DNA of 4,497 bases from Naegleria gruberi (Eukaryota): the NCBI GenBank assembly GCA_000004985.1, contig GG739182.1; one strand, given 5' to 3'. Each line of letters opens with the position of its first letter. Position 1 is the stretch's first letter. Below are positions 2 through 4,497 of this stretch, piece by piece. The notes under the pieces are model-generated. The model made no database searches. It worked only from the letters and a program-made list of their open reading frames with translations, and was not told the DNA's origin. The position numbers and the translations under genes are program-made.

Positions 2-88
2 AATATGTATGATATACTAGTTCCTAAATATGTAGATGATATTACTTTTTGGAAAAGTTACTTTTATTGTTTACATCGAATTTTATTT
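2..88 (+). other. BSD domain, C-terminal portion (conserved FW pair at nt 47-52)
   Basis: The LVPxxVxxxxFWxxYFY motif is diagnostic of BSD domains in the BTF2/TFIIH p62, synapse-associated and DOS2 families. The N-terminal part of the domain lies outside the window. Confidence 0.65.
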
Positions 89-1604
89 ACACAAAATATT
101 GATGAATTAGATGAAGAAATTTGTGAATTATATAATAAAAGAAGAAGACAACAAATGGAAAGAGAATTGGAATTACAAGAATATTGTAATGCTATTGAAT
201 CTGATTGTAAAATTATTCACATGATTATTAAAATGGAAATTGAAAATATTAATCAAATTTTATTATTTGAAAAAAATTTAAATAATCAAATTATTAATTC
301 AATTGATAATGACATTATACATGAAAATAATATTAATCAAAATAATATTCATCAAAATAATTCAAATGATAGTAATGAAAATAGTAATTCAGATAGTAAT
401 AATAATAATGAAATAATTGATAATTCTAATATTTCTAGTAATGAATCTAATAATGAAACATTATCTGATAATACTACTAATACTAATACTAATATTGATA
501 ATTCTTCTACTTCCACATCTACATCTACTACATCAACATCAACACCAACAACATCGACAACAAATGATAAAAAGAAAATGAATGAAGAACGTAAAAGAAG
601 AGAAGAAGAATATCATACTAATAAACAATTAATTGAAGAGAAAATTAGAGAAGTAATTGAAATTAAAAAGAAAGTTTCATTATTTTCAAGTGAAATTATT
701 ACGAATGAAACATTAATTGAAAGAATTTCACAATCTAATCATTGTTTTATGCAAACATTTACCTGAATATACCAAATATAAAGAATTATCTAAAGAATTA
801 TCAGATGAAAATAATTCAGTGTTATGTGTTGGTACAACAATTGGTGGAAGATTGAGATCATGTTCAAATGTTACATTTTCACCACAATTATTAAATACAA
901 ATAGAAATTATCCAATTACAACTGAATTTCAAAGAAAGAAGATTGTTTCTTCTTTACCTGCTAGATATCATTTAAGTAATTGGACTTTATTATATTCAAC
1001 ATTAGAACATGGTATTTCAATTAAAACTTTATATAGAAAATCATTGGATATTGATGCAAGTATTTTAATTATTAAAACTATGGATGGAAATGTTTTAGGT
1101 GCTTTTAATTCAATGCCATATAATGAAAGAGGACATAAATATTATGGAAATGGTGAAATTATGTTATATTCATTTAAAAATTCAACAAATATCAAAACTT
1201 ATCATTGGACTAAATTAAATGATTTCTTCATTAGATCAACAGATTCAATGATTTGTTATGGTGGTGATGAATTTGGAAGAAGTGCTCTCATCATTGATGG
1301 TGAATTATTAACTGGTAGTACAAATATTTGTAAGACTTTTGCATGTTCAGATGATTCAAATGTTGAACAAACTCCATTATTGGAAAAGGAAATTTCATCT
1401 GCAACCACTCCATCAAATAGTGGTAGTAGCAGCAGTACACTTGTTAAATCACAATCCATTACAACTTTTAGTACTGAAGTTGATTTTGAAATTTATGCTT
1501 TGGAAGTTTGGGGATTTGAACAAATTGTCAAGAAGGAAACTAGATCCAATTCAATCAAGACTAATGTTGCTGCCTCAACTCTATTGGATTATTCTCATTA
1601 TTAG
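2..1604 (+). CDS. 5'-partial protein-coding gene: BSD domain (C-terminal part), Asn/Ser/Thr-rich low-complexity, basic coiled-coil, C-terminal TLDc domain (OXR1/NCOA7/TBC1D24-family fold). Two ORF segments (2..766 frame 2; 717..1604 frame 3) must be joined by a splice or an indel.
   Basis: Frame 2 is open from the window edge (nt 2), so the true start is upstream. The first residues, ...YDILVPKYVDDITFWKSYFYCLHRIL, match the BSD-domain C-terminal signature as I recall it from SYAP1 (approximately [21 protein letters not shown]). The frame-3 segment aligns block-by-block with the human OXR1 TLDc domain as I recall it: LPARYHLSNWTLLYSTLEHGISIKTLYR vs LPPRTIGYPWTLVYGTGKHGTSLKTLYR; ILIIKTMDGNVLGAFNSMPYNERGHKYYGNGEIMLYSF vs [45 protein letters not shown] vs SCKTFGN; and DFEIYALEVWGFE vs EDFFIQDIEIWAFE. 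The frame-3 segment has no internal Met before the middle of the TLDc domain and no room for a promoter, so it must continue the upstream ORF. Stop is TAG at 1602-1604, followed in-frame by TAG TAA (triple stop). Confidence 0.85.
505..560 (+). repeat. Imperfect (ACATCN)n microsatellite encoding a STSTSTTSTSTPTTSTT tract inside the plus-strand CDS
   Basis: tcttctacttccacatctacatctactacatcaacatcaacaccaacaacatcgacaacaa, preceded by AAT-rich Asn runs (nt ~300-500). Confidence 0.6.
690..783 (+). other. Candidate 94-nt intron (GT..AG, phase-compatible) joining the frame-2 and frame-3 segments. The alternative is a 1-nt indel somewhere in 717..766.
   Basis: Only a length of 1 mod 3 can join the frames. 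GT at 690-691 to AG at 782-783 is 94 nt and splices to ...KKKVSLFS-K-LSKELSDENNSV.... It argues against an intron that the donor GTGAAA is non-canonical for Dictyostelium (usually GTAAGT or GTATGT), that AT content is only ~75% against ~90% in real dictyostelid introns, and that the interval also reads as plausible protein in frame 2. Confidence 0.25.
915..1520 (+). other. TLDc domain, with a ~34-aa Ser/Thr-rich insertion (nt ~1371-1472) between the last two conserved blocks
   Basis: Conserved TLDc blocks read directly from the frame-3 translation: W-LLYS-HG-S-TLYR; GAF-YYG-GE; CYGGDE-ALIIDGEL; EVWGF. The order and spacing of these blocks match the OXR1/NCOA7 C-terminal domain as I recall it. 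Confidence 0.8.
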
Positions 1605-1668: not shown

Positions 1669-3852
1669 TTATTTAGAAGAGGAGATGAGAGAATTATTGT
1701 TGGCAGAACTATTATTGATACATTTTTGCATTTCACTTGATGTGTATTGTGCAATTTCCTTAATATATTCAAAAGTATCCATTNNNNNNNNNNNNNNNNN
1801 NNNNNNNNNNNNNNNNNNNNNNNNNNNNNNNNNNNNNNNNNNNNNNNNNNNNNNNNNNNNNNNNNNNNNNNNNNNNNNNNNNNNNNNNNNNNNNNNNNNN
1901 NNNNNNNNNNNNNNNNNNNNNNNNNNNNNNNNNNNNNNNNNNNNNNNNNNNNNNNNNNNNNNNNNNNNNNNNNNNNNNNNNNNNNNNNNNNNNNNNNNNN
2001 NNNNNNNNNNNNNNNNNNNNNNNNNNNNNNNNNNNNNNNNNNNNNNNNNNNNNNNNNNNNNNNNNNNNNNNNNNNNNNNNNNNNNNNNNNNNNNNNNNNN
2101 NNNNNNNNNNNNNNNNNNNNNNNNNNNNNNNNNNNNNNNNNNNNNNNNNNNNNNNNNNNNNNNNNNNNNNNNNNNNNNNNNNNNNNNNNNNNNNNNNNNN
2201 NNNNNNNNNNNNNNNNNNNNNNNNNNNNNNNNNNNNNNNNNNNNNNNNNNNNNNNNNNNNNNNNNNNNNNNNNNNNNNNNNNNNNNNNNNNNNNNNNNNN
2301 NNNNNNNNNNNNNNNNNNNNNNNNNNNNNNNNNNNNNNNNNNNNNNNNNNNNNNNNNNNNNNNNNNNNNNNNNNNNNNNNNNNNNNNNNNNNNNNNNNNN
2401 NNNNNNNNNNNNNNNNNNNNNNNNNNNNNNNNNNNNNNNNNNNNNNNNNNNNNNNNNNNNNNNNNNNNNNNNNNNNNNNNNNNNNNNNNNNNNNNNNNNN
2501 NNNNNNNNNNNNNNNNNNNNNNNNNNNNNNNNNNNNNNNNNNNNNNNNNNNNNNNNNNNNNNNNNNNNNNNNNNNNNNNNNNNNNNNNNNNNNNNNNNNN
2601 NNNNNNNNNNNNNNNNNNNNNNNNNNNNNNNNNNNNNNNNNNNNNNNNNNNNNNNNNNNNNNNNNNNNNNNNNNNNNNNNNNNNNNNNNNNNNNNNNNNN
2701 NNNNNNNNNNNNNNNNNNNNNNNNNNNNNNNNNNNNNNNNNNNNNNNNNNNNNNNNNNNNNNNNNNNNNNNNNNNNNNNNNNNNNNNNNNNNNNNNNNNN
2801 NNNNNNNNNNNNNNNNNNNNNNNNNNNNNNNNNNNNNNNNNNNNNNNNNNNNNNNNNNNNNNNNNNNNNNNNNNNNNNNNNNNNNNNNNNNNNNNNNNNN
2901 NNNNNNNNNNNNNNNNNNNNNNNNNNNNNNNNNNNNNNNNNNNNNNNNNNNNNNNNNNNNNNNNNNNNNNNNNNNNNNNNNCTAATTCTTGTTTACATCT
3001 TTGTGAATCATTTCCAAATTTACTTTTCCATTCATTAATTATTGTATTTGTACCTGTTGTATCATTTTCTAAAAATGGTGAATATAAATTACTTAAAAAT
3101 GTAAAAAAAATTAATTCTTGTTTAAATTCTTGTTCAGAACAATAAGTTACATTTCTAGAATGTTTTACAATATTAATTAAATGATACATTACTTGTATCA
3201 TCACTTGCCAATTTCTATTAGATTGTGGTGTTATACTAAAATGTCTCTTATTAAGTGAAACTGGAATTTTAAAAAACTCTACAAGTTCCATCACTAATTC
3301 TTCATTTAAACCTGATACCATTGAATGTCTATTAATAGTTGTATTATTATTATTAGAAGAATTAGAATTGTTATTAGAAGAATTAGATTGTTGATTAGCC
3401 TTCTTCATTTCACTATGAGTTGGAAAGGTAACACATAAATTCATATCAATTTGTTTAAATAAATGATTCAAGTAGAATCTCAACTTGGATGAATCACCTT
3501 CACGGAATGTTTTCATACTAATATCAATACCTAGATTTTCATTAGAGAAGAATTCAACTAGTGCATTAATCATGTGATTAAAATTAAATGATTGTTGTTG
3601 ATTAGAAGCAGCAGCAGAGGAGGTTATTGTAGAAGAATTAAGTCTATCACCACCACCTATGATCATACTAGTAGATAGAATGGATGATGTATTTGATGTT
3701 GTTGATTTTATGGAATCTCTTGGACCATTCTTATTGTTGGAGATTAGTATGGATTTTAATCCACTGTTATTGTTAGAACCTAGTGTACTAGCATTAAGTG
3801 ATGATGATGTGTTGGTAATATCACGCAAGGCTGAACGATGTAATGATGTCAT
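1669..3852 (-). CDS. Hypothetical protein with N-terminal cyclin-B-type destruction box (RSALRDITN, aa 6-14). Only aa 1-290 (nt 2982..3852) and a possible C-terminal 37 aa (1669..1783) are sequence-supported; the middle is an assembly gap.
   Basis: Start ATG at 3850-3852 (revcomp) is the first Met after an in-frame stop (revcomp TAG at 3895-3897). The ORF is continuous to the gap edge at 2982. Asn/Ser/Thr-rich linkers are typical of dictyostelid coding sequence. No cyclin box, Walker motif or other recognisable domain is visible in the readable 290 aa. The post-gap segment 1669..1783 reads MDTFEYIKEIAQYTSSEMQKCINNSSANNNSLISSSK* in an open frame, but its frame relation across the 1198 N's cannot be known. 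Confidence 0.7.
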   Translation of the reverse strand: MTSLHRSALRDITNTSSSLNASTLGSNNNSGLKSILISNNKNGPRDSIKSTTSNTSSILSTSMIIGGGDRLNSSTITSSAAASNQQQSFNFNHMINALVEFFSNENLGIDISMKTFREGDSSKLRFYLNHLFKQIDMNLCVTFPTHSEMKKANQQSNSSNNNSNSSNNNNTTINRHSMVSGLNEELVMELVEFFKIPVSLNKRHFSITPQSNRNWQVMIQVMYHLINIVKHSRNVTYCSEQEFKQELIFFTFLSNLYSPFLENDTTGTNTIINEWKSKFGNDSQRCKQELXXXXXXXXXXXXXXXXXXXXXXXXXXXXXXXXXXXXXXXXXXXXXXXXXXXXXXXXXXXXXXXXXXXXXXXXXXXXXXXXXXXXXXXXXXXXXXXXXXXXXXXXXXXXXXXXXXXXXXXXXXXXXXXXXXXXXXXXXXXXXXXXXXXXXXXXXXXXXXXXXXXXXXXXXXXXXXXXXXXXXXXXXXXXXXXXXXXXXXXXXXXXXXXXXXXXXXXXXXXXXXXXXXXXXXXXXXXXXXXXXXXXXXXXXXXXXXXXXXXXXXXXXXXXXXXXXXXXXXXXXXXXXXXXXXXXXXXXXXXXXXXXXXXXXXXXXXXXXXXXXXXXXXXXXXXXXXXXXXXXXXXXXXXXXXXXXXXXXXXXXXXXXXXXXXXXXXXXXXXXXXXXXXXXXXXXXXXXXXXXMDTFEYIKEIAQYTSSEMQKCINNSSANNNSLISSSK
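1784..2981. other. Assembly gap / masked region (1198 N)
   Basis: Uninterrupted run of n characters. All 'X' residues in the track ORFs come from it. Confidence 0.99.
3352..3393 (-). repeat. Two tandem copies of a ~21-bp unit (attagaagaattagaattgtt / attagaagaattagattgttg) inside the minus-strand CDS, encoding NSSNNNSNSSNNNN
   Basis: Direct reading of the sequence. Coding low-complexity expansion typical of dictyostelid genes. Confidence 0.55.
3811..3837 (-). other. Destruction box (D-box) R-x-x-L-x-x-I-x-N
   Basis: Revcomp reads cgt tca gcc ttg cgt gat att acc aac = RSALRDITN, a perfect match to the APC/C degron consensus RxxLxxIxN (compare cyclin B RTALGDIGN). It sits at residues 6-14, immediately at the N-terminus, as in mitotic cyclins, securins and geminin. 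Confidence 0.55.
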
Positions 3853-3887
3853 TTTTTTTAAAGTGTTTGAAGAATGTAACGAAATTT

Positions 3888-3895
3888 TTTGGCGC
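3888..3895. promoter_or_regulatory. E2F-consensus site TTTGGCGC (TTTSSCGC), 36-43 bp from the ATG of the D-box gene
   Basis: Exact match to the canonical E2F/DP recognition sequence. It is a GC-only pentamer in intergenic DNA that is otherwise >85% AT. Confidence 0.45.
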
Positions 3896-3904
3896 TAACT
3901 TAAA

Positions 3905-3916
3905 TTTGGCGCCAAA
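3905..3916. promoter_or_regulatory. Palindromic double E2F site TTTGGCGCCAAA (overlapping inverted TTTGGCGC half-sites), 53-64 bp from the ATG of the D-box gene
   Basis: A perfect 12-bp palindrome with the same arrangement as the classic overlapping E2F sites of the DHFR and E2F1 promoters (TTTCGCGCCAAA-type). A GGCGCC hexamer is expected far less than once per 4.5 kb at this base composition. Confidence 0.5.
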
Positions 3917-4055: not shown

Positions 4056-4497
4056 TTATAATAAATTATTACTATTTAAAATATGATAAGAAGGTATTGT
4101 AATTAATAATCTGTTTAAATTATATTCATCATCATTATTATTATAATTTTTATCATGTTTATAAATAACACCACTATTAATTACATTTCTATTCCAAATT
4201 AAATTACCATTTATAGTATCTATTTTAATAAATGGAGCATATCTATGTGATTTTAAATATTCTTTACAATATAATTCTTTTGTAACAATTTCACTTGTTA
4301 AATATTCTTCAATTTCATTTAATTCATTTTCTAAATCTTGTAAATTAATTTTATTTTCAAATTCTTTATTTTCATTAATTTGATTATTTTTAATTAATTT
4401 ATTTAATCTATTTTGTAAATTATTTATATTATTATTATTAGAATGATTATTATTATTATTATTACTATTTAAATTATTATTAGAATGATTATTATTA
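4056..4497 (-). CDS. 3' portion (146 codons plus stop) of a minus-strand gene that starts beyond the window end; Asn-rich coiled-coil-like hypothetical protein. Not in the supplied ORF track because it has no in-frame ATG.
   Basis: Manual revcomp translation from nt 4496 downward is open for 146 codons: NNNHSNNNLNSNNNNNNHSSNNNNINNLQNRLNKLIKNNQINENKEFENKINLQDLENELNEIEEYLTSEIVTKELYCKEEYLKSHRYAPFIKIDTINGNLIWNRNVINSGVIYKHDKNYNNNDDEYNLNRLLITIPSYHILNSNNLL, then TAA at 4056-4058. The other two minus frames hit stops almost immediately. Composition (AAT-encoded Asn runs, mixed-residue C-terminal region) looks coding rather than intergenic. Confidence 0.55.
   Translation of the reverse strand, partial: NNNHSNNNLNSNNNNNNHSNNNNINNLQNRLNKLIKNNQINENKEFENKINLQDLENELNEIEEYLTSEIVTKELYCKEYLKSHRYAPFIKIDTINGNLIWNRNVINSGVIYKHDKNYNNNDDEYNLNRLLITIPSYHILNSNNLL
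4432..4497 (-). repeat. ~24-bp direct repeat (attattattagaatgattattatta) at 4432-4456 and 4473-4497 within the Asn-rich coding sequence of the window-end gene
   Basis: Direct reading. Encodes NNNHSNNN twice. Confidence 0.5.

What the first reader, a model, noticed from the sequence alone, without database searches (positions are those of the whole stretch)
3811..3916. Uncharacterised gene combining an N-terminal perfect D-box with tandem E2F sites at its promoter: candidate novel cell-cycle-regulated APC/C substrate
Two independent cell-cycle signatures coincide on one gene. First, residues 6-14 of the minus-strand ORF are RSALRDITN, a perfect match to the RxxLxxIxN APC/C degron, placed at the very N-terminus as in mitotic cyclins and securin. 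Second, 35-65 bp before the ATG there are an E2F site TTTGGCGC (3888-3895) and a 12-bp palindromic double E2F site TTTGGCGCCAAA (3905-3916). Both are all-G/C cores in DNA that is otherwise almost pure A/T, so chance occurrence is very unlikely. In dictyostelids the Rb orthologue RblA with E2F/DP is known to control S-phase and mitotic genes. The readable 290 aa show no cyclin box, no Cdc6-type Walker A motif and no other domain I can name. There is a weak internal duplication around two LVEFF motifs. The protein could therefore be a lineage-specific or fast-evolving cell-cycle factor. Securin-like, Dbf4-like and replication-licensing-like identities are all unverified hypotheses.
Basis: partly seen in the sequence, partly recalled or inferred. 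Interest (0 to 1): 0.65.

Follow-up and report, generated by a model that had tools for sequence, protein, structure and literature searches.

The report
Naegleria Ndc80 gene, E2F promoter, D-box

Summary
RSALRDITN is at residues 6-14 of the minus-strand ORF. TTTGGCGC (3888-3895) and TTTGGCGCCAAA (3905-3916) lie 36-64 bp before its ATG, giving 3 motif matches against 0.01 expected.

- **Organism:** the window is a whole 4.5-kb scaffold of Naegleria gruberi, not a dictyostelid.
- **Gene:** it is Ndc80/HEC1, not a novel factor. An assembly gap cuts it, and the deposited 225-aa model is an artefact. An August 2026 preprint already identified N. gruberi Ndc80 from transcripts and showed that it is up-regulated in mitosis.
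- **New here, D-box:** it is the only conserved block in an otherwise divergent, disordered tail. It occurs in 5 of 6 heterolobosean orthologues and matches Naegleria's own cyclin A/B D-boxes.
- **New here, E2F sites:** E2F-type sites occur in all six orthologous promoters. Of 14 TTTSSCGC matches in 66 kb, 11 are in these promoters.
- **New here, composite promoter:** the four closest species share a fixed-spacing element, GCGCCAA-N7-CGTTACA-N3-TTCAAA.

Most likely mechanism (inferred): E2F-type, and possibly Myb/CHR-type, transcription before mitosis, then APC/C-mediated removal after anaphase. This is a variant of what is reported for human HEC1. Interest is moderate.

The parts
2983..3852 (-). 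5' part of the Ndc80/HEC1 coding sequence (290 codons), cut off by the assembly gap
   Evidence: ORF. phmmer to orthologues P0002-P0004. Profile hit to human NDC80 9n9g E=4.4e-7. The top five Foldseek PDB hits are all Ndc80/Hec1.
3811..3837 (-). D-box RSALRDITN (residues 6-14)
   Evidence: Conserved as RSALRDITN, RRALRDITN, RRALRDITN and RQPLRDVTN in four further orthologues. Same pattern as N. gruberi cyclin D-boxes RTCLGDISN, REILRDVTN and REALANITN.
3595..3852 (-). Disordered N-terminal tail (residues 1-86)
   Evidence: AlphaFold2 pLDDT below 50 for residues 1-86. Length and sequence vary among orthologues apart from two short blocks.
3709..3723 (-). Second conserved tail block PRDSI (residues 44-48), an Aurora-type [RK]x[ST][ILV] site
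   Evidence: Aligned with PRESM (two orthologues) and RDSL in the Naegleria-clade orthologues. The kinase assignment is an inference from the consensus.
3073..3594 (-). Calponin-homology (CH) domain of Ndc80, residues about 87-260
   Evidence: pLDDT 64-84 over its helices. Foldseek to the Hec1 CH domain 2igp gives TM 0.78 normalised by target, prob 1.00. Weak Pfam Ndc80_HEC hit at residues 92-139.
3310..3387 (-). Asn-rich insertion inside the CH domain (residues 156-181), the heterolobosean 'CE loop'
   Evidence: Low pLDDT for 156-181. Variable-length insertion in all orthologues. Described as a 41-aa CE loop in the preprint.
1784..2981 (.). Assembly gap (1198 N) hiding the coiled-coil part of the gene
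   Evidence: Full-length orthologues are 600-699 aa.
1669..1782 (-). Probable last 37 codons and stop of Ndc80 (..DTFEYIKEIAQ..)
   Evidence: Resembles the orthologue C-termini ESFAAIKQLQ and ECFEGIKQLQ. This is an inference; the reading frame across the gap is unknown.
3888..3895 (+). Proximal E2F-type site TTTGGCGC (GCGCCAAA on the gene strand, 43 bp before the ATG)
   Evidence: The same GCGCCAA core is at -40 to -45 in L001, L004 and L005.
3905..3916 (.). Distal palindromic double E2F-type site TTTGGCGCCAAA (-64/-60)
   Evidence: Identical palindrome in L001 at -70/-66. TTTCGCGCCAAA in L005 and L003.
3875..3881 (-). Conserved CGTTACA (TGTAACG on the + strand), exactly 7 bp after the proximal E2F core; candidate Myb/MSA-like element
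   Evidence: Fixed spacing in four promoters. The same heptamer lies in sense orientation upstream of three cyclin B genes. The factor is unknown.
3864..3871 (-). Conserved TTCAAACA (TTTGAA on the + strand, the sequence of a reverse-oriented CHR), 3 bp after CGTTACA and 19 bp before the ATG
   Evidence: The CHR consensus TTTGAA works in both orientations near the transcription start in human late cell-cycle genes, including NDC80 (PMC4176359). Function here is only inferred.
4056..4497 (-). 3' end of the upstream same-strand neighbour gene (stop codon 4056-4058). It limits the Ndc80 promoter to about 200 bp.
   Evidence: The same neighbour (..VINSGV..IP.Y..LN) precedes Ndc80 in L004 and L005.
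5..1604 (+). Convergent BSD + TLDc-domain gene (synteny marker, not part of the feature)
   Evidence: Pfam TLD 7.2e-32 and BSD 1.3e-4. A TLD gene is convergent with Ndc80 in L004 and L005.

Best explanation
The minus-strand gene is the Naegleria gruberi orthologue of the kinetochore microtubule-binding protein Ndc80/HEC1. It is split by an assembly gap.

**Promoter.** The roughly 200-bp promoter carries two E2F-type sites. They are followed, at fixed spacing, by a CGTTACA and a TTCAAA element just before the A-rich start.

**Protein.** It begins with a cyclin-type destruction box in a disordered tail.

**Proposed mechanism.** E2F/DP-Rb sets cell-cycle-dependent transcription, possibly together with a Myb-like or MuvB-like factor on the proximal block, so that Ndc80 is made for mitosis. 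After anaphase, APC/C with Cdc20 or Cdh1 recognises the N-terminal D-box and removes the protein. This fits an amoeba that has no microtubules in interphase.

**Shown:** gene identity, the motifs, their conservation and their statistical enrichment. The mitotic mRNA rise comes from the literature.

**Inferred:** which factors bind the DNA sites, and that the D-box drives degradation.
For: **Identity**
- phmmer links the ORF to full-length orthologues.
- One of these passes the Pfam Ndc80_HEC threshold: 41 bits against a cut-off of 25.1.
- A profile of four orthologues hits human NDC80 collinearly at E=4.4e-7.
- The AF2 model's best five PDB matches are all Ndc80/Hec1.
- Synteny holds in two other Naegleria genomes.
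- The preprint independently reports N. gruberi Ndc80, its CE loop and mitotic up-regulation.

**D-box**
- Present in 5 of 6 orthologues as the only conserved block among the first ~40 tail residues.
- Chance occurrence is 0.2% within the first 25 residues.
- The region is disordered.
- It fits R-x-x-L-x-D-[IV]-[ST]-N, the pattern of heterolobosean cyclin A/B D-boxes.
- Naegleria has one Cdc20 and one Cdh1.

**E2F sites**
- 3 matches against 0.01 expected in the window.
- E2F-type sites occur in all six promoters.
- 11 of 14 TTTSSCGC matches in 66 kb fall in 960 bp of Ndc80 promoters, where about 1.8 matches are expected overall.
- N. gruberi encodes E2F and DP with intact RRxYD motifs, plus DEL and Rb.

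**Composite element**
- Identical spacing in four species whose Ndc80 proteins are only 42-48% identical.

**Biological fit**
- Interphase Naegleria lacks microtubules.

**Precedent**
- Human NDC80 is a CHR/DREAM gene and a reported APC/C-Cdh1 substrate.
Against: - No binding, expression-mutant or protein-stability data exist for these motifs in Naegleria.
- The most distant orthologue (P0004) lacks the D-box arginine and leucine, so the degron is not universal.
- In human cells, mutating the Ndc80 D-box changed neither its cellular level nor its kinetochore disassembly (PMC3613690). APC/C control of Ndc80 is therefore not firmly established even in the precedent.
- E2F sites classically mark G1/S genes, whereas Ndc80 mRNA peaks with mitosis. 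The heterolobosean cyclin B promoters examined have no TTTSSCGC.
- The four closest promoters are phylogenetically related, so their agreement is not four independent events.
- The window protein alone does not reach the Pfam threshold: 10.6 bits.
Confidence: 0.6

Rival explanations
1. The conserved N-terminal block R-x-[AP]-L-R-D-[IV]-T-N is a short linear motif with another job, and only resembles a D-box. Possible jobs include docking of a kinase or phosphatase, tail-mediated oligomerisation of Ndc80 complexes on microtubules, or nuclear import for closed mitosis.
For: - Ndc80 tails are known to act in microtubule binding, oligomerisation and Aurora regulation (preprint).
- The block is more constrained (L-R-D-[IV]-T-N) than the minimal RxxLxxxxN.
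- Human D-box mutants show no stability phenotype.
Against: - The constrained positions are exactly those shared with the D-boxes of this organism's own cyclins A and B.
- The motif is at the extreme N-terminus of a disordered segment, as in cyclins.
- The motif has no basic cluster, so it is neither NLS-like nor a charge patch.
Confidence: 0.25
2. The GC-rich sites are bound by a factor other than E2F/DP. Alternatively, mitotic induction is driven by the proximal CGTTACA/TTCAAA block (Myb-like or MuvB/LIN54-like), with the E2F-type sites acting only as repressor sites outside the cell cycle, as in a DREAM-like arrangement.
For: - CGTTACA is shared with cyclin B promoters that have no E2F sites.
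- TTTGAA is the CHR sequence, and human NDC80 is a CHR gene.
- The spacing GCGCCAA-N7-CGTTACA-N3-TTCAAA is invariant.
Against: - CGTTACA is short: 9 matches in 66 kb against about 3 expected.
- TTCAAA is common in A+T-rich DNA.
- The 17-bp distance from the E2F core to TTCAAA does not match the 4-bp CDE-CHR spacing. That spacing figure is from my own knowledge of CDE/CHR promoters.
- The composite was not found in a metagenome scan.
- The presence of LIN54 or a 3R-Myb in Naegleria was not checked.
Confidence: 0.3
3. Both signals are chance or neutral features of an A+T-rich genome with no regulatory role.
For: Short motifs. No direct functional data.
Against: - Window statistics: 3 matches against 0.01 expected.
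- About 300-fold higher density in orthologous promoters than elsewhere.
- The D-box is conserved in tails that are otherwise unalignable.
- Shuffle probability is 0.2-0.8% per species.
Confidence: 0.05

Closest known systems
Human NDC80/HEC1
   Same: - Orthologous protein: disordered N-tail, CH domain and coiled coil.
- Late-cell-cycle transcription through E2F/DREAM-type promoter elements near the start site.
- Reported D-box and APC/C-Cdh1 dependence.
   Different: - The human D-box is at residues 372-380, inside the coiled coil, and its importance is disputed.
- The Naegleria-clade D-box is a cyclin-type RxxLxD[IV]TN at residues 6-14 of the disordered tail. The position equivalent to the human D-box has no RxxL in the orthologues (alignment).
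- The Naegleria CH domain carries an extra Asn-rich CE loop.
- Sequence identity to human is about 13% in the structural alignment.
Mitotic cyclin D-boxes (N. gruberi CycB1 RTCLGDISN, CycAa REILRDVTN, CycAb REALANITN; N. fowleri and N. lovaniensis CycB RRALVDISN)
   Same: Same nine-residue pattern, N-terminal and in a low-complexity disordered region. RRALRDITN of N. lovaniensis Ndc80 shares 7 of 9 residues with RRALVDISN.
   Different: - No cyclin box.
- The motif starts at residues 6-10 rather than 30-90.
- Cyclin D-boxes are experimentally established in other organisms; this one is not.
E2F-site promoters such as the mammalian DHFR site TTTCGCGCCAAA
   Same: The N. lovaniensis and L003 promoters carry exactly TTTCGCGCCAAA. 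N. gruberi and L001 carry TTTGGCGCCAAA. That the DHFR site has this sequence is from my own knowledge.
   Different: - Here the sites lie 40-70 bp before the ATG of a mitotic gene, not a G1/S gene.
- They are coupled at fixed spacing to two further conserved elements.
CDE/CHR and plant MSA (Myb) G2/M promoter elements
   Same: - A TTTGAA hexamer in reverse orientation close to the start, as in about 45% of human CHR genes.
- TGTAACG contains the AACG core of Myb/MSA sites (own knowledge) and recurs as TGTAACGG upstream of cyclin B genes.
   Different: - Spacing to the GC-rich element is 17 bp, not 4 bp.
- The final G of the YAACGG Myb consensus is missing in the Ndc80 promoters.
- No evidence was obtained here for MuvB, LIN54 or 3R-Myb in Naegleria.

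Membership tests
Ndc80/HEC1 kinetochore protein | Sequence match to the Ndc80_HEC (PF03801) CH-domain profile above the curated threshold | tested here: inconclusive
   The window protein scores 10.6 bits, E=0.47, below the 25.1 cut-off. Orthologue P0004 scores 41 bits, E=2e-10. P0004 is linked to the window protein by phmmer at E=3.3e-9.
Ndc80/HEC1 kinetochore protein | Collinear architecture: disordered tail, CH domain, long coiled coil of about 600-700 aa | tested here: met
   Orthologues are 600-699 aa. Their profile aligns with human NDC80 over positions 174-595 against 174-618, and also over the first CH helix, at E=4.4e-7. In the window itself the coiled coil is hidden by the gap.
Ndc80/HEC1 kinetochore protein | CH-domain fold like Hec1 | tested here: met
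   AF2 with 5 sequences gives pLDDT 64-84 on the CH helices. Foldseek ranks 1-5 are 2ve7, 2igp, 9n9g, 7kdf and 5tcs, all Ndc80. 2igp gives TM 0.78 by target length, but E-values are only 0.015-0.8.
Ndc80/HEC1 kinetochore protein | Forms the Ndc80-Nuf2-Spc24-Spc25 complex at kinetochores | not testable with these tools
   The preprint reports a confident AlphaFold-Multimer model of the four N. gruberi subunits. No localisation of Ndc80 itself was seen in the sections read.
APC/C D-box substrate | RxxLxxxxN/[ILV]xN motif | tested here: met
   RSALRDITN at residues 6-14.
APC/C D-box substrate | Motif lies in an accessible disordered region | tested here: met
   pLDDT about 30 for residues 1-86.
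APC/C D-box substrate | Motif conserved among orthologues | tested here: met
   5 of 6 orthologues. Absent from the most distant one, P0004.
APC/C D-box substrate | Organism has APC/C co-activators Cdc20 and Cdh1 | not tested
   Taken from the literature: one Cdc20 and one Cdh1 in Naegleria (PMC3195147).
APC/C D-box substrate | D-box-dependent ubiquitination and degradation at mitotic exit | not testable with these tools
   Needs experiments. For human Ndc80 the evidence is conflicting.
E2F target gene | TTTSSCGC site(s) close to the start of the gene | tested here: met
   Three matches at -43 to -64.
E2F target gene | Sites conserved in orthologous promoters | tested here: met
   Exact TTTSSCGC in 5 of 6 promoters. 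The sixth (L004) has the one-off variant ATTCGCGCCAAT plus TTTGGCGG.
E2F target gene | E2F/DP/Rb present in the organism | not tested
   Taken from the literature: NgruE2F, NgruDP, NgruDEL and NgruRB sequences in the supplement of PMC4862756.
E2F target gene | E2F binding and E2F/Rb-dependent periodic transcription | not testable with these tools
   Only mitotic up-regulation of the mRNA is reported.
CDE/CHR (DREAM/MuvB) promoter | CHR hexamer TTTGAA at or near the transcription start | tested here: inconclusive
   TTCAAA at -16 to -21 is conserved in four Naegleria-clade promoters. The hexamer is frequent in A+T-rich DNA, and the transcription start site is unknown.
CDE/CHR (DREAM/MuvB) promoter | GC-rich CDE four nucleotides upstream of the CHR | tested here: not met
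   The nearest GC-rich core ends 17 bp upstream of TTCAAA.

The most novel reading that the evidence does not exclude
Heteroloboseans use a fixed-geometry G2/M promoter module: E2F site, then a Myb/MSA-like TGTAACG, then a CHR-like TTTGAA. This would be the Discoba counterpart of the animal DREAM/MMB and plant MYB3R-E2F systems, which would push that combined logic back to the last eukaryotic common ancestor. In addition, Naegleria destroys its kinetochore-microtubule coupler Ndc80 every cycle through a cyclin-type N-terminal D-box acquired in this lineage, in parallel with its mitosis-only microtubule cytoskeleton.
Probability: 0.2. Interest if true: 0.65.

Novelty: new variant of a known kind. 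Interest (0 to 1): 0.4.

Why it matters
**Annotation.** The analysis assigns a mis-modelled orphan scaffold gene (XP_002668248.1, 'predicted protein') to Ndc80. The assembly gap and the truncated gene model are a plausible reason why genome surveys disagreed about whether Naegleria has this complex.

**Biology.** Naegleria builds microtubules only for mitosis, which makes it a natural system for asking how a cell makes and disposes of a whole spindle and kinetochore apparatus each cycle. A conserved cyclin-type degron on Ndc80 and a compact, conserved E2F-containing promoter give two short, mutable sequence handles for that question. They also offer one of the first concrete cis-regulatory candidates in a discoban outside the kinetoplastids.

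**Limits.** It is not a new kind of system. E2F/DREAM control and APC/C targeting of HEC1 are already described in human cells.

Tried and rejected
- **Direct sequence searches with the 290-aa protein.** Single-sequence searches against PDB found nothing. Pfam gave only a sub-threshold Ndc80_HEC hit and a sub-threshold DUF7308 hit.
- **Word-indexed protein search.** It found only the protein's own truncated model. The exhaustive representative search was needed to reach orthologues.
- **Single-sequence AlphaFold2.** Unusable, pLDDT 34. The five-sequence alignment gave a modest model, pLDDT 53.
- **Securin-, Dbf4- or Cdc6-like identities.** Rejected: no such family appears in any search, and Ndc80 explains the whole protein.
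- **Dictyostelid origin.** Rejected.
- **Internal duplication.** Rejected.
- **Cyclin B loci of N. gruberi.** Locus look-ups for P0007 and P0015 returned nothing. Same-species promoters could therefore not be compared, and other heterolobosean cyclin B loci were used instead.
- **Metagenome scan.** The 30-nt composite promoter pattern gave no hit. A looser 14-base pattern was not run because it would be swamped by chance bacterial matches.


Full report
**1. What is in the window**

The window is 4497 bases, 24% G+C, with a run of 1198 N at 1784-2981. An exact protein look-up shows that it is a complete 4497-bp scaffold of Naegleria gruberi. The deposited product is a 225-aa 'predicted protein', XP_002668248.1 / EFC35504.1 / D2W600.

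The minus-strand ORF starts at 3852 and runs 290 codons into the gap. The deposited model is an artefact. It follows this ORF for about 216 residues. It then jumps to nine residues (KMIQQVQIQ) read in another frame at 3068..3042. A probable last exon fragment..DTFEYIKEIAQ.. plus stop, lies just beyond the gap at 1782..1669.

**2.

- RSALRDITN occupies residues 6-14, encoded at 3837..3811.
- TTTGGCGC is at 3888-3895 and TTTGGCGCCAAA at 3905-3916.
- TTTSSCGC matches three times, against 0.01 expected from shuffles.
- A strict D-box pattern arises in 0.8% of shuffled tails, and in 0.2% within the first 25 residues.
- The claimed LVEFF duplication is not significant.

**3. Identity: Ndc80/HEC1**

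On its own the 290-aa fragment is almost invisible to standard tools. Pfam Ndc80_HEC scores 10.6 bits against a cut-off of 25.1, and there is no PDB hit. The following evidence establishes the identity.

- An exhaustive phmmer search found three relatives. A profile search added two more.

| Orthologue | Source | Length |
|---|---|---|
| L001 / P0002 | soil metagenome contig | 600 aa when its true start is used |
| P0005 | unnamed SRA assembly | 696 aa |
| P0006 | Naegleria lovaniensis | 699 aa |
| P0003 | Willaertia magna | 655 aa |
| P0004 | unnamed SRA assembly | 653 aa |

- P0004 passes the Pfam Ndc80_HEC threshold at 41 bits.
- A profile of four orthologues hits full-length human NDC80 (9n9g) collinearly at E=4.4e-7.
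- An AlphaFold2 model built with five sequences has a disordered tail (residues 1-86), a helical CH domain and a disordered Asn-rich loop (156-181). Its five best PDB matches are all Ndc80/Hec1 structures, and TM is 0.78 to the Hec1 CH domain.
- In two Naegleria-clade loci (N. lovaniensis and the unnamed assembly L004) the gene has the same neighbours as in the window. These are an upstream same-strand gene ending ..VINSGV..IP.Y..LN and a convergent TLDc gene.
- A bioRxiv preprint of August 2026 (10.64898/2026.08.18.745565) reports the same gene. It found N. gruberi Ndc80-complex subunits only after de novo transcriptome assembly. It describes the 41-aa 'CE loop'. It shows that all four subunits are up-regulated in mitosis. 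It does not mention a D-box, APC/C, E2F or promoters.

**4. The D-box is conserved**

In the six-sequence alignment the tails differ in length (47-119 residues) and are largely unalignable. The exceptions are one block near the N-terminus and a second short block, PR[DE]S[ILM], which fits an Aurora-type site.

| Orthologue | N-terminal block |
|---|---|
| N. gruberi (window) | RSALRDITN |
| P0005 | RSALRDITN |
| N. lovaniensis | RRALRDITN |
| L001 | RRALRDITN |
| Willaertia | RQPLRDVTN |
| P0004 | no motif |

The constrained positions R..L.D[IV][ST]N are the same as in the D-boxes of this lineage's own mitotic cyclins:

- N. gruberi CycB1: RTCLGDISN
- N. gruberi CycAa: REILRDVTN
- N. gruberi CycAb: REALANITN (supplement of PMC4862756)
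- Willaertia CycB: RTCLGDISN
- N. fowleri and N. lovaniensis CycB: RRALVDISN

Naegleria encodes one Cdc20 and one Cdh1 (PMC3195147). I therefore read the motif as a genuine APC/C degron. This is an inference from pattern, position, disorder and conservation. No stability data exist.

**5. The E2F-type sites are conserved and specific**

Positions are relative to the ATG.

| Promoter | Sites |
|---|---|
| N. gruberi | -64/-60 (palindrome) and -43 |
| L001 | -70/-66 (same palindrome) and -40 |
| N. lovaniensis | TTTCGCGCCAAA at -48/-44, plus TTTGGCGG at -70 |
| L004 | ATTCGCGCCAAT at -48/-45, plus TTTGGCGG at -70 |
| Willaertia | TTTCCCGC at -41 |
| L003 | TTTCGCGCCAAA at -144/-140 |

Over all ten loci held (66.4 kb) there are 14 exact TTTSSCGC matches, against about 1.8 expected from a first-order model. 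Eleven of them lie in the 960 bp immediately upstream of Ndc80 genes. The upstream neighbour is on the same strand and ends at 4056, so the sites can only serve Ndc80. N. gruberi encodes E2F and DP with intact RRxYD DNA-contact motifs, an E2F7/8-like DEL and an Rb protein.

**6. A conserved composite promoter**

In the four Naegleria-clade promoters the proximal core is followed at invariant spacing by two more elements: GCGCCAA-N7-CGTTACA-N3-TTCAAA, ending 10-15 bp before an A-rich start. Their Ndc80 proteins are only 42-48% identical.

- On the + strand of the window these elements read TGTAACG (3875-3881) and TTTGAA (3866-3871).
- TTTGAA is the CHR hexamer. In human cells CHRs work in either orientation, sit on the transcription start and control NDC80, NUF2 and SPC25 (PMC4176359).
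- TGTAACG contains the AACG core of Myb/MSA sites (own knowledge).
- As a side test I fetched four heterolobosean cyclin B loci. Three carry CCGTTACA in sense orientation upstream: Willaertia at -127, N. fowleri at -326 and N. lovaniensis at -305, the latter two before what looks like a 5'-UTR intron. The fourth has CCGTTAAC. None has an E2F site.
- CGTTACA occurs 9 times in 66 kb (about 3 expected), and 7 of those are at these promoters.

This is suggestive, not proven. The motifs are short, two of the cyclin loci are orthologous, the spacing does not fit the classical CDE-CHR arrangement, and a metagenome scan for the composite found nothing.

**7. Mechanism proposed**

- Shown: the gene is Ndc80; it carries the motifs; they are conserved and enriched.
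- From the literature: the mRNA rises in mitosis, and interphase Naegleria has no microtubules and builds its spindle de novo.
- Inferred: E2F/DP-Rb, possibly with a Myb- or MuvB-like factor on the proximal block, times transcription. APC/C with Cdc20 or Cdh1 removes the protein after anaphase through the N-terminal D-box.

**8. Comparison with what is known**

Human HEC1 is a CHR/DREAM late-cell-cycle gene. It was reported as an APC/C-Cdh1 substrate (Li et al. 2011, cited). Its D-box is at residues 372-380 in the coiled coil, and mutating it changed neither protein level nor kinetochore disassembly in another study (PMC3613690). The heterolobosean orthologues have no RxxL at the equivalent position (alignment). 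Instead they carry a cyclin-type D-box at the very N-terminus. The case is therefore a variant of a known arrangement, not a new kind of factor.

**9. Verdict**

The gene's identity is already known. The conserved N-terminal degron and the E2F-containing composite promoter appear to be unreported and are directly testable. Interest is moderate (0.4).

Noticed in passing
window 3864-3895 (-); L001 584-613, L004 598-627, L005 2957-2986: Four Naegleria-clade Ndc80 promoters share GCGCCAA-N7-CGTTACA-N3-TTCAAA with identical spacing. CGTTACA, as CCGTTACA, also lies in sense orientation upstream of cyclin B genes in Willaertia (L006 at -127), N. fowleri (L007 at -326) and N. lovaniensis (L009 at -305). 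Those cyclin B promoters have no E2F site. This is a possible Myb/MSA-like plus CHR-like mitotic promoter code.
   Followed up: partly
window 3042-3068 (-) and 1784-2981: The deposited N. gruberi gene model (XP_002668248.1, 225 aa) is an artefact. It leaves the true ORF after about 216 residues and ends with 9 residues from another frame, just before the 1198-N gap. This may be why genome-based surveys disagreed about Ndc80 in Naegleria.
   Followed up: yes
window 3709-3723 (-): A second conserved block in the Ndc80 tail, PRDSI. It aligns with PRESM (P0005, P0006) and RDSL (L001) and fits the Aurora-kinase consensus [RK]x[ST][ILV].
   Followed up: partly
window 1669-1782 (-): A short ORF ending ..MDTFEYIKEIAQYTSSEMQKCINNSSANNNSLISSSK* resembles the C-termini of the orthologues (..ESFAAIKQLQ....ECFEGIKQLQ..). 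It is probably the last part of Ndc80, with a 26-aa extension.
   Followed up: partly
window 5-1604 (+): The convergent neighbour encodes a BSD domain (ORF 5-766) and a TLDc domain (ORF 717-1604) in two different frames. This implies an intron or frameshift near 720-770. The single TLDc gene model in N. lovaniensis encodes 764 aa.
   Followed up: no
L002 5001-7291 (Willaertia magna KAL9642285.1): The C-terminal ~100 residues of the annotated Willaertia Ndc80 match a zinc-binding dehydrogenase domain (ADH_zinc_N_2, E=5.7e-4) and do not align with the other orthologues. This is probably a gene-model fusion.
   Followed up: no
L007 2690-2790 and L009 2715-2800: The N. fowleri and N. lovaniensis cyclin B genes appear to have a non-coding first exon (ATGAATGTC.. 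with early stops) followed by a GTAAGT intron, about 300 bp upstream of the annotated start.
   Followed up: no
L004 570-588 and L005 2930-2946: In N. lovaniensis and its close relative the intergenic space before Ndc80 is only 55 bp. The distal E2F-like half-site (CCGCCAAA) therefore lies inside the last codons of the upstream gene.
   Followed up: no
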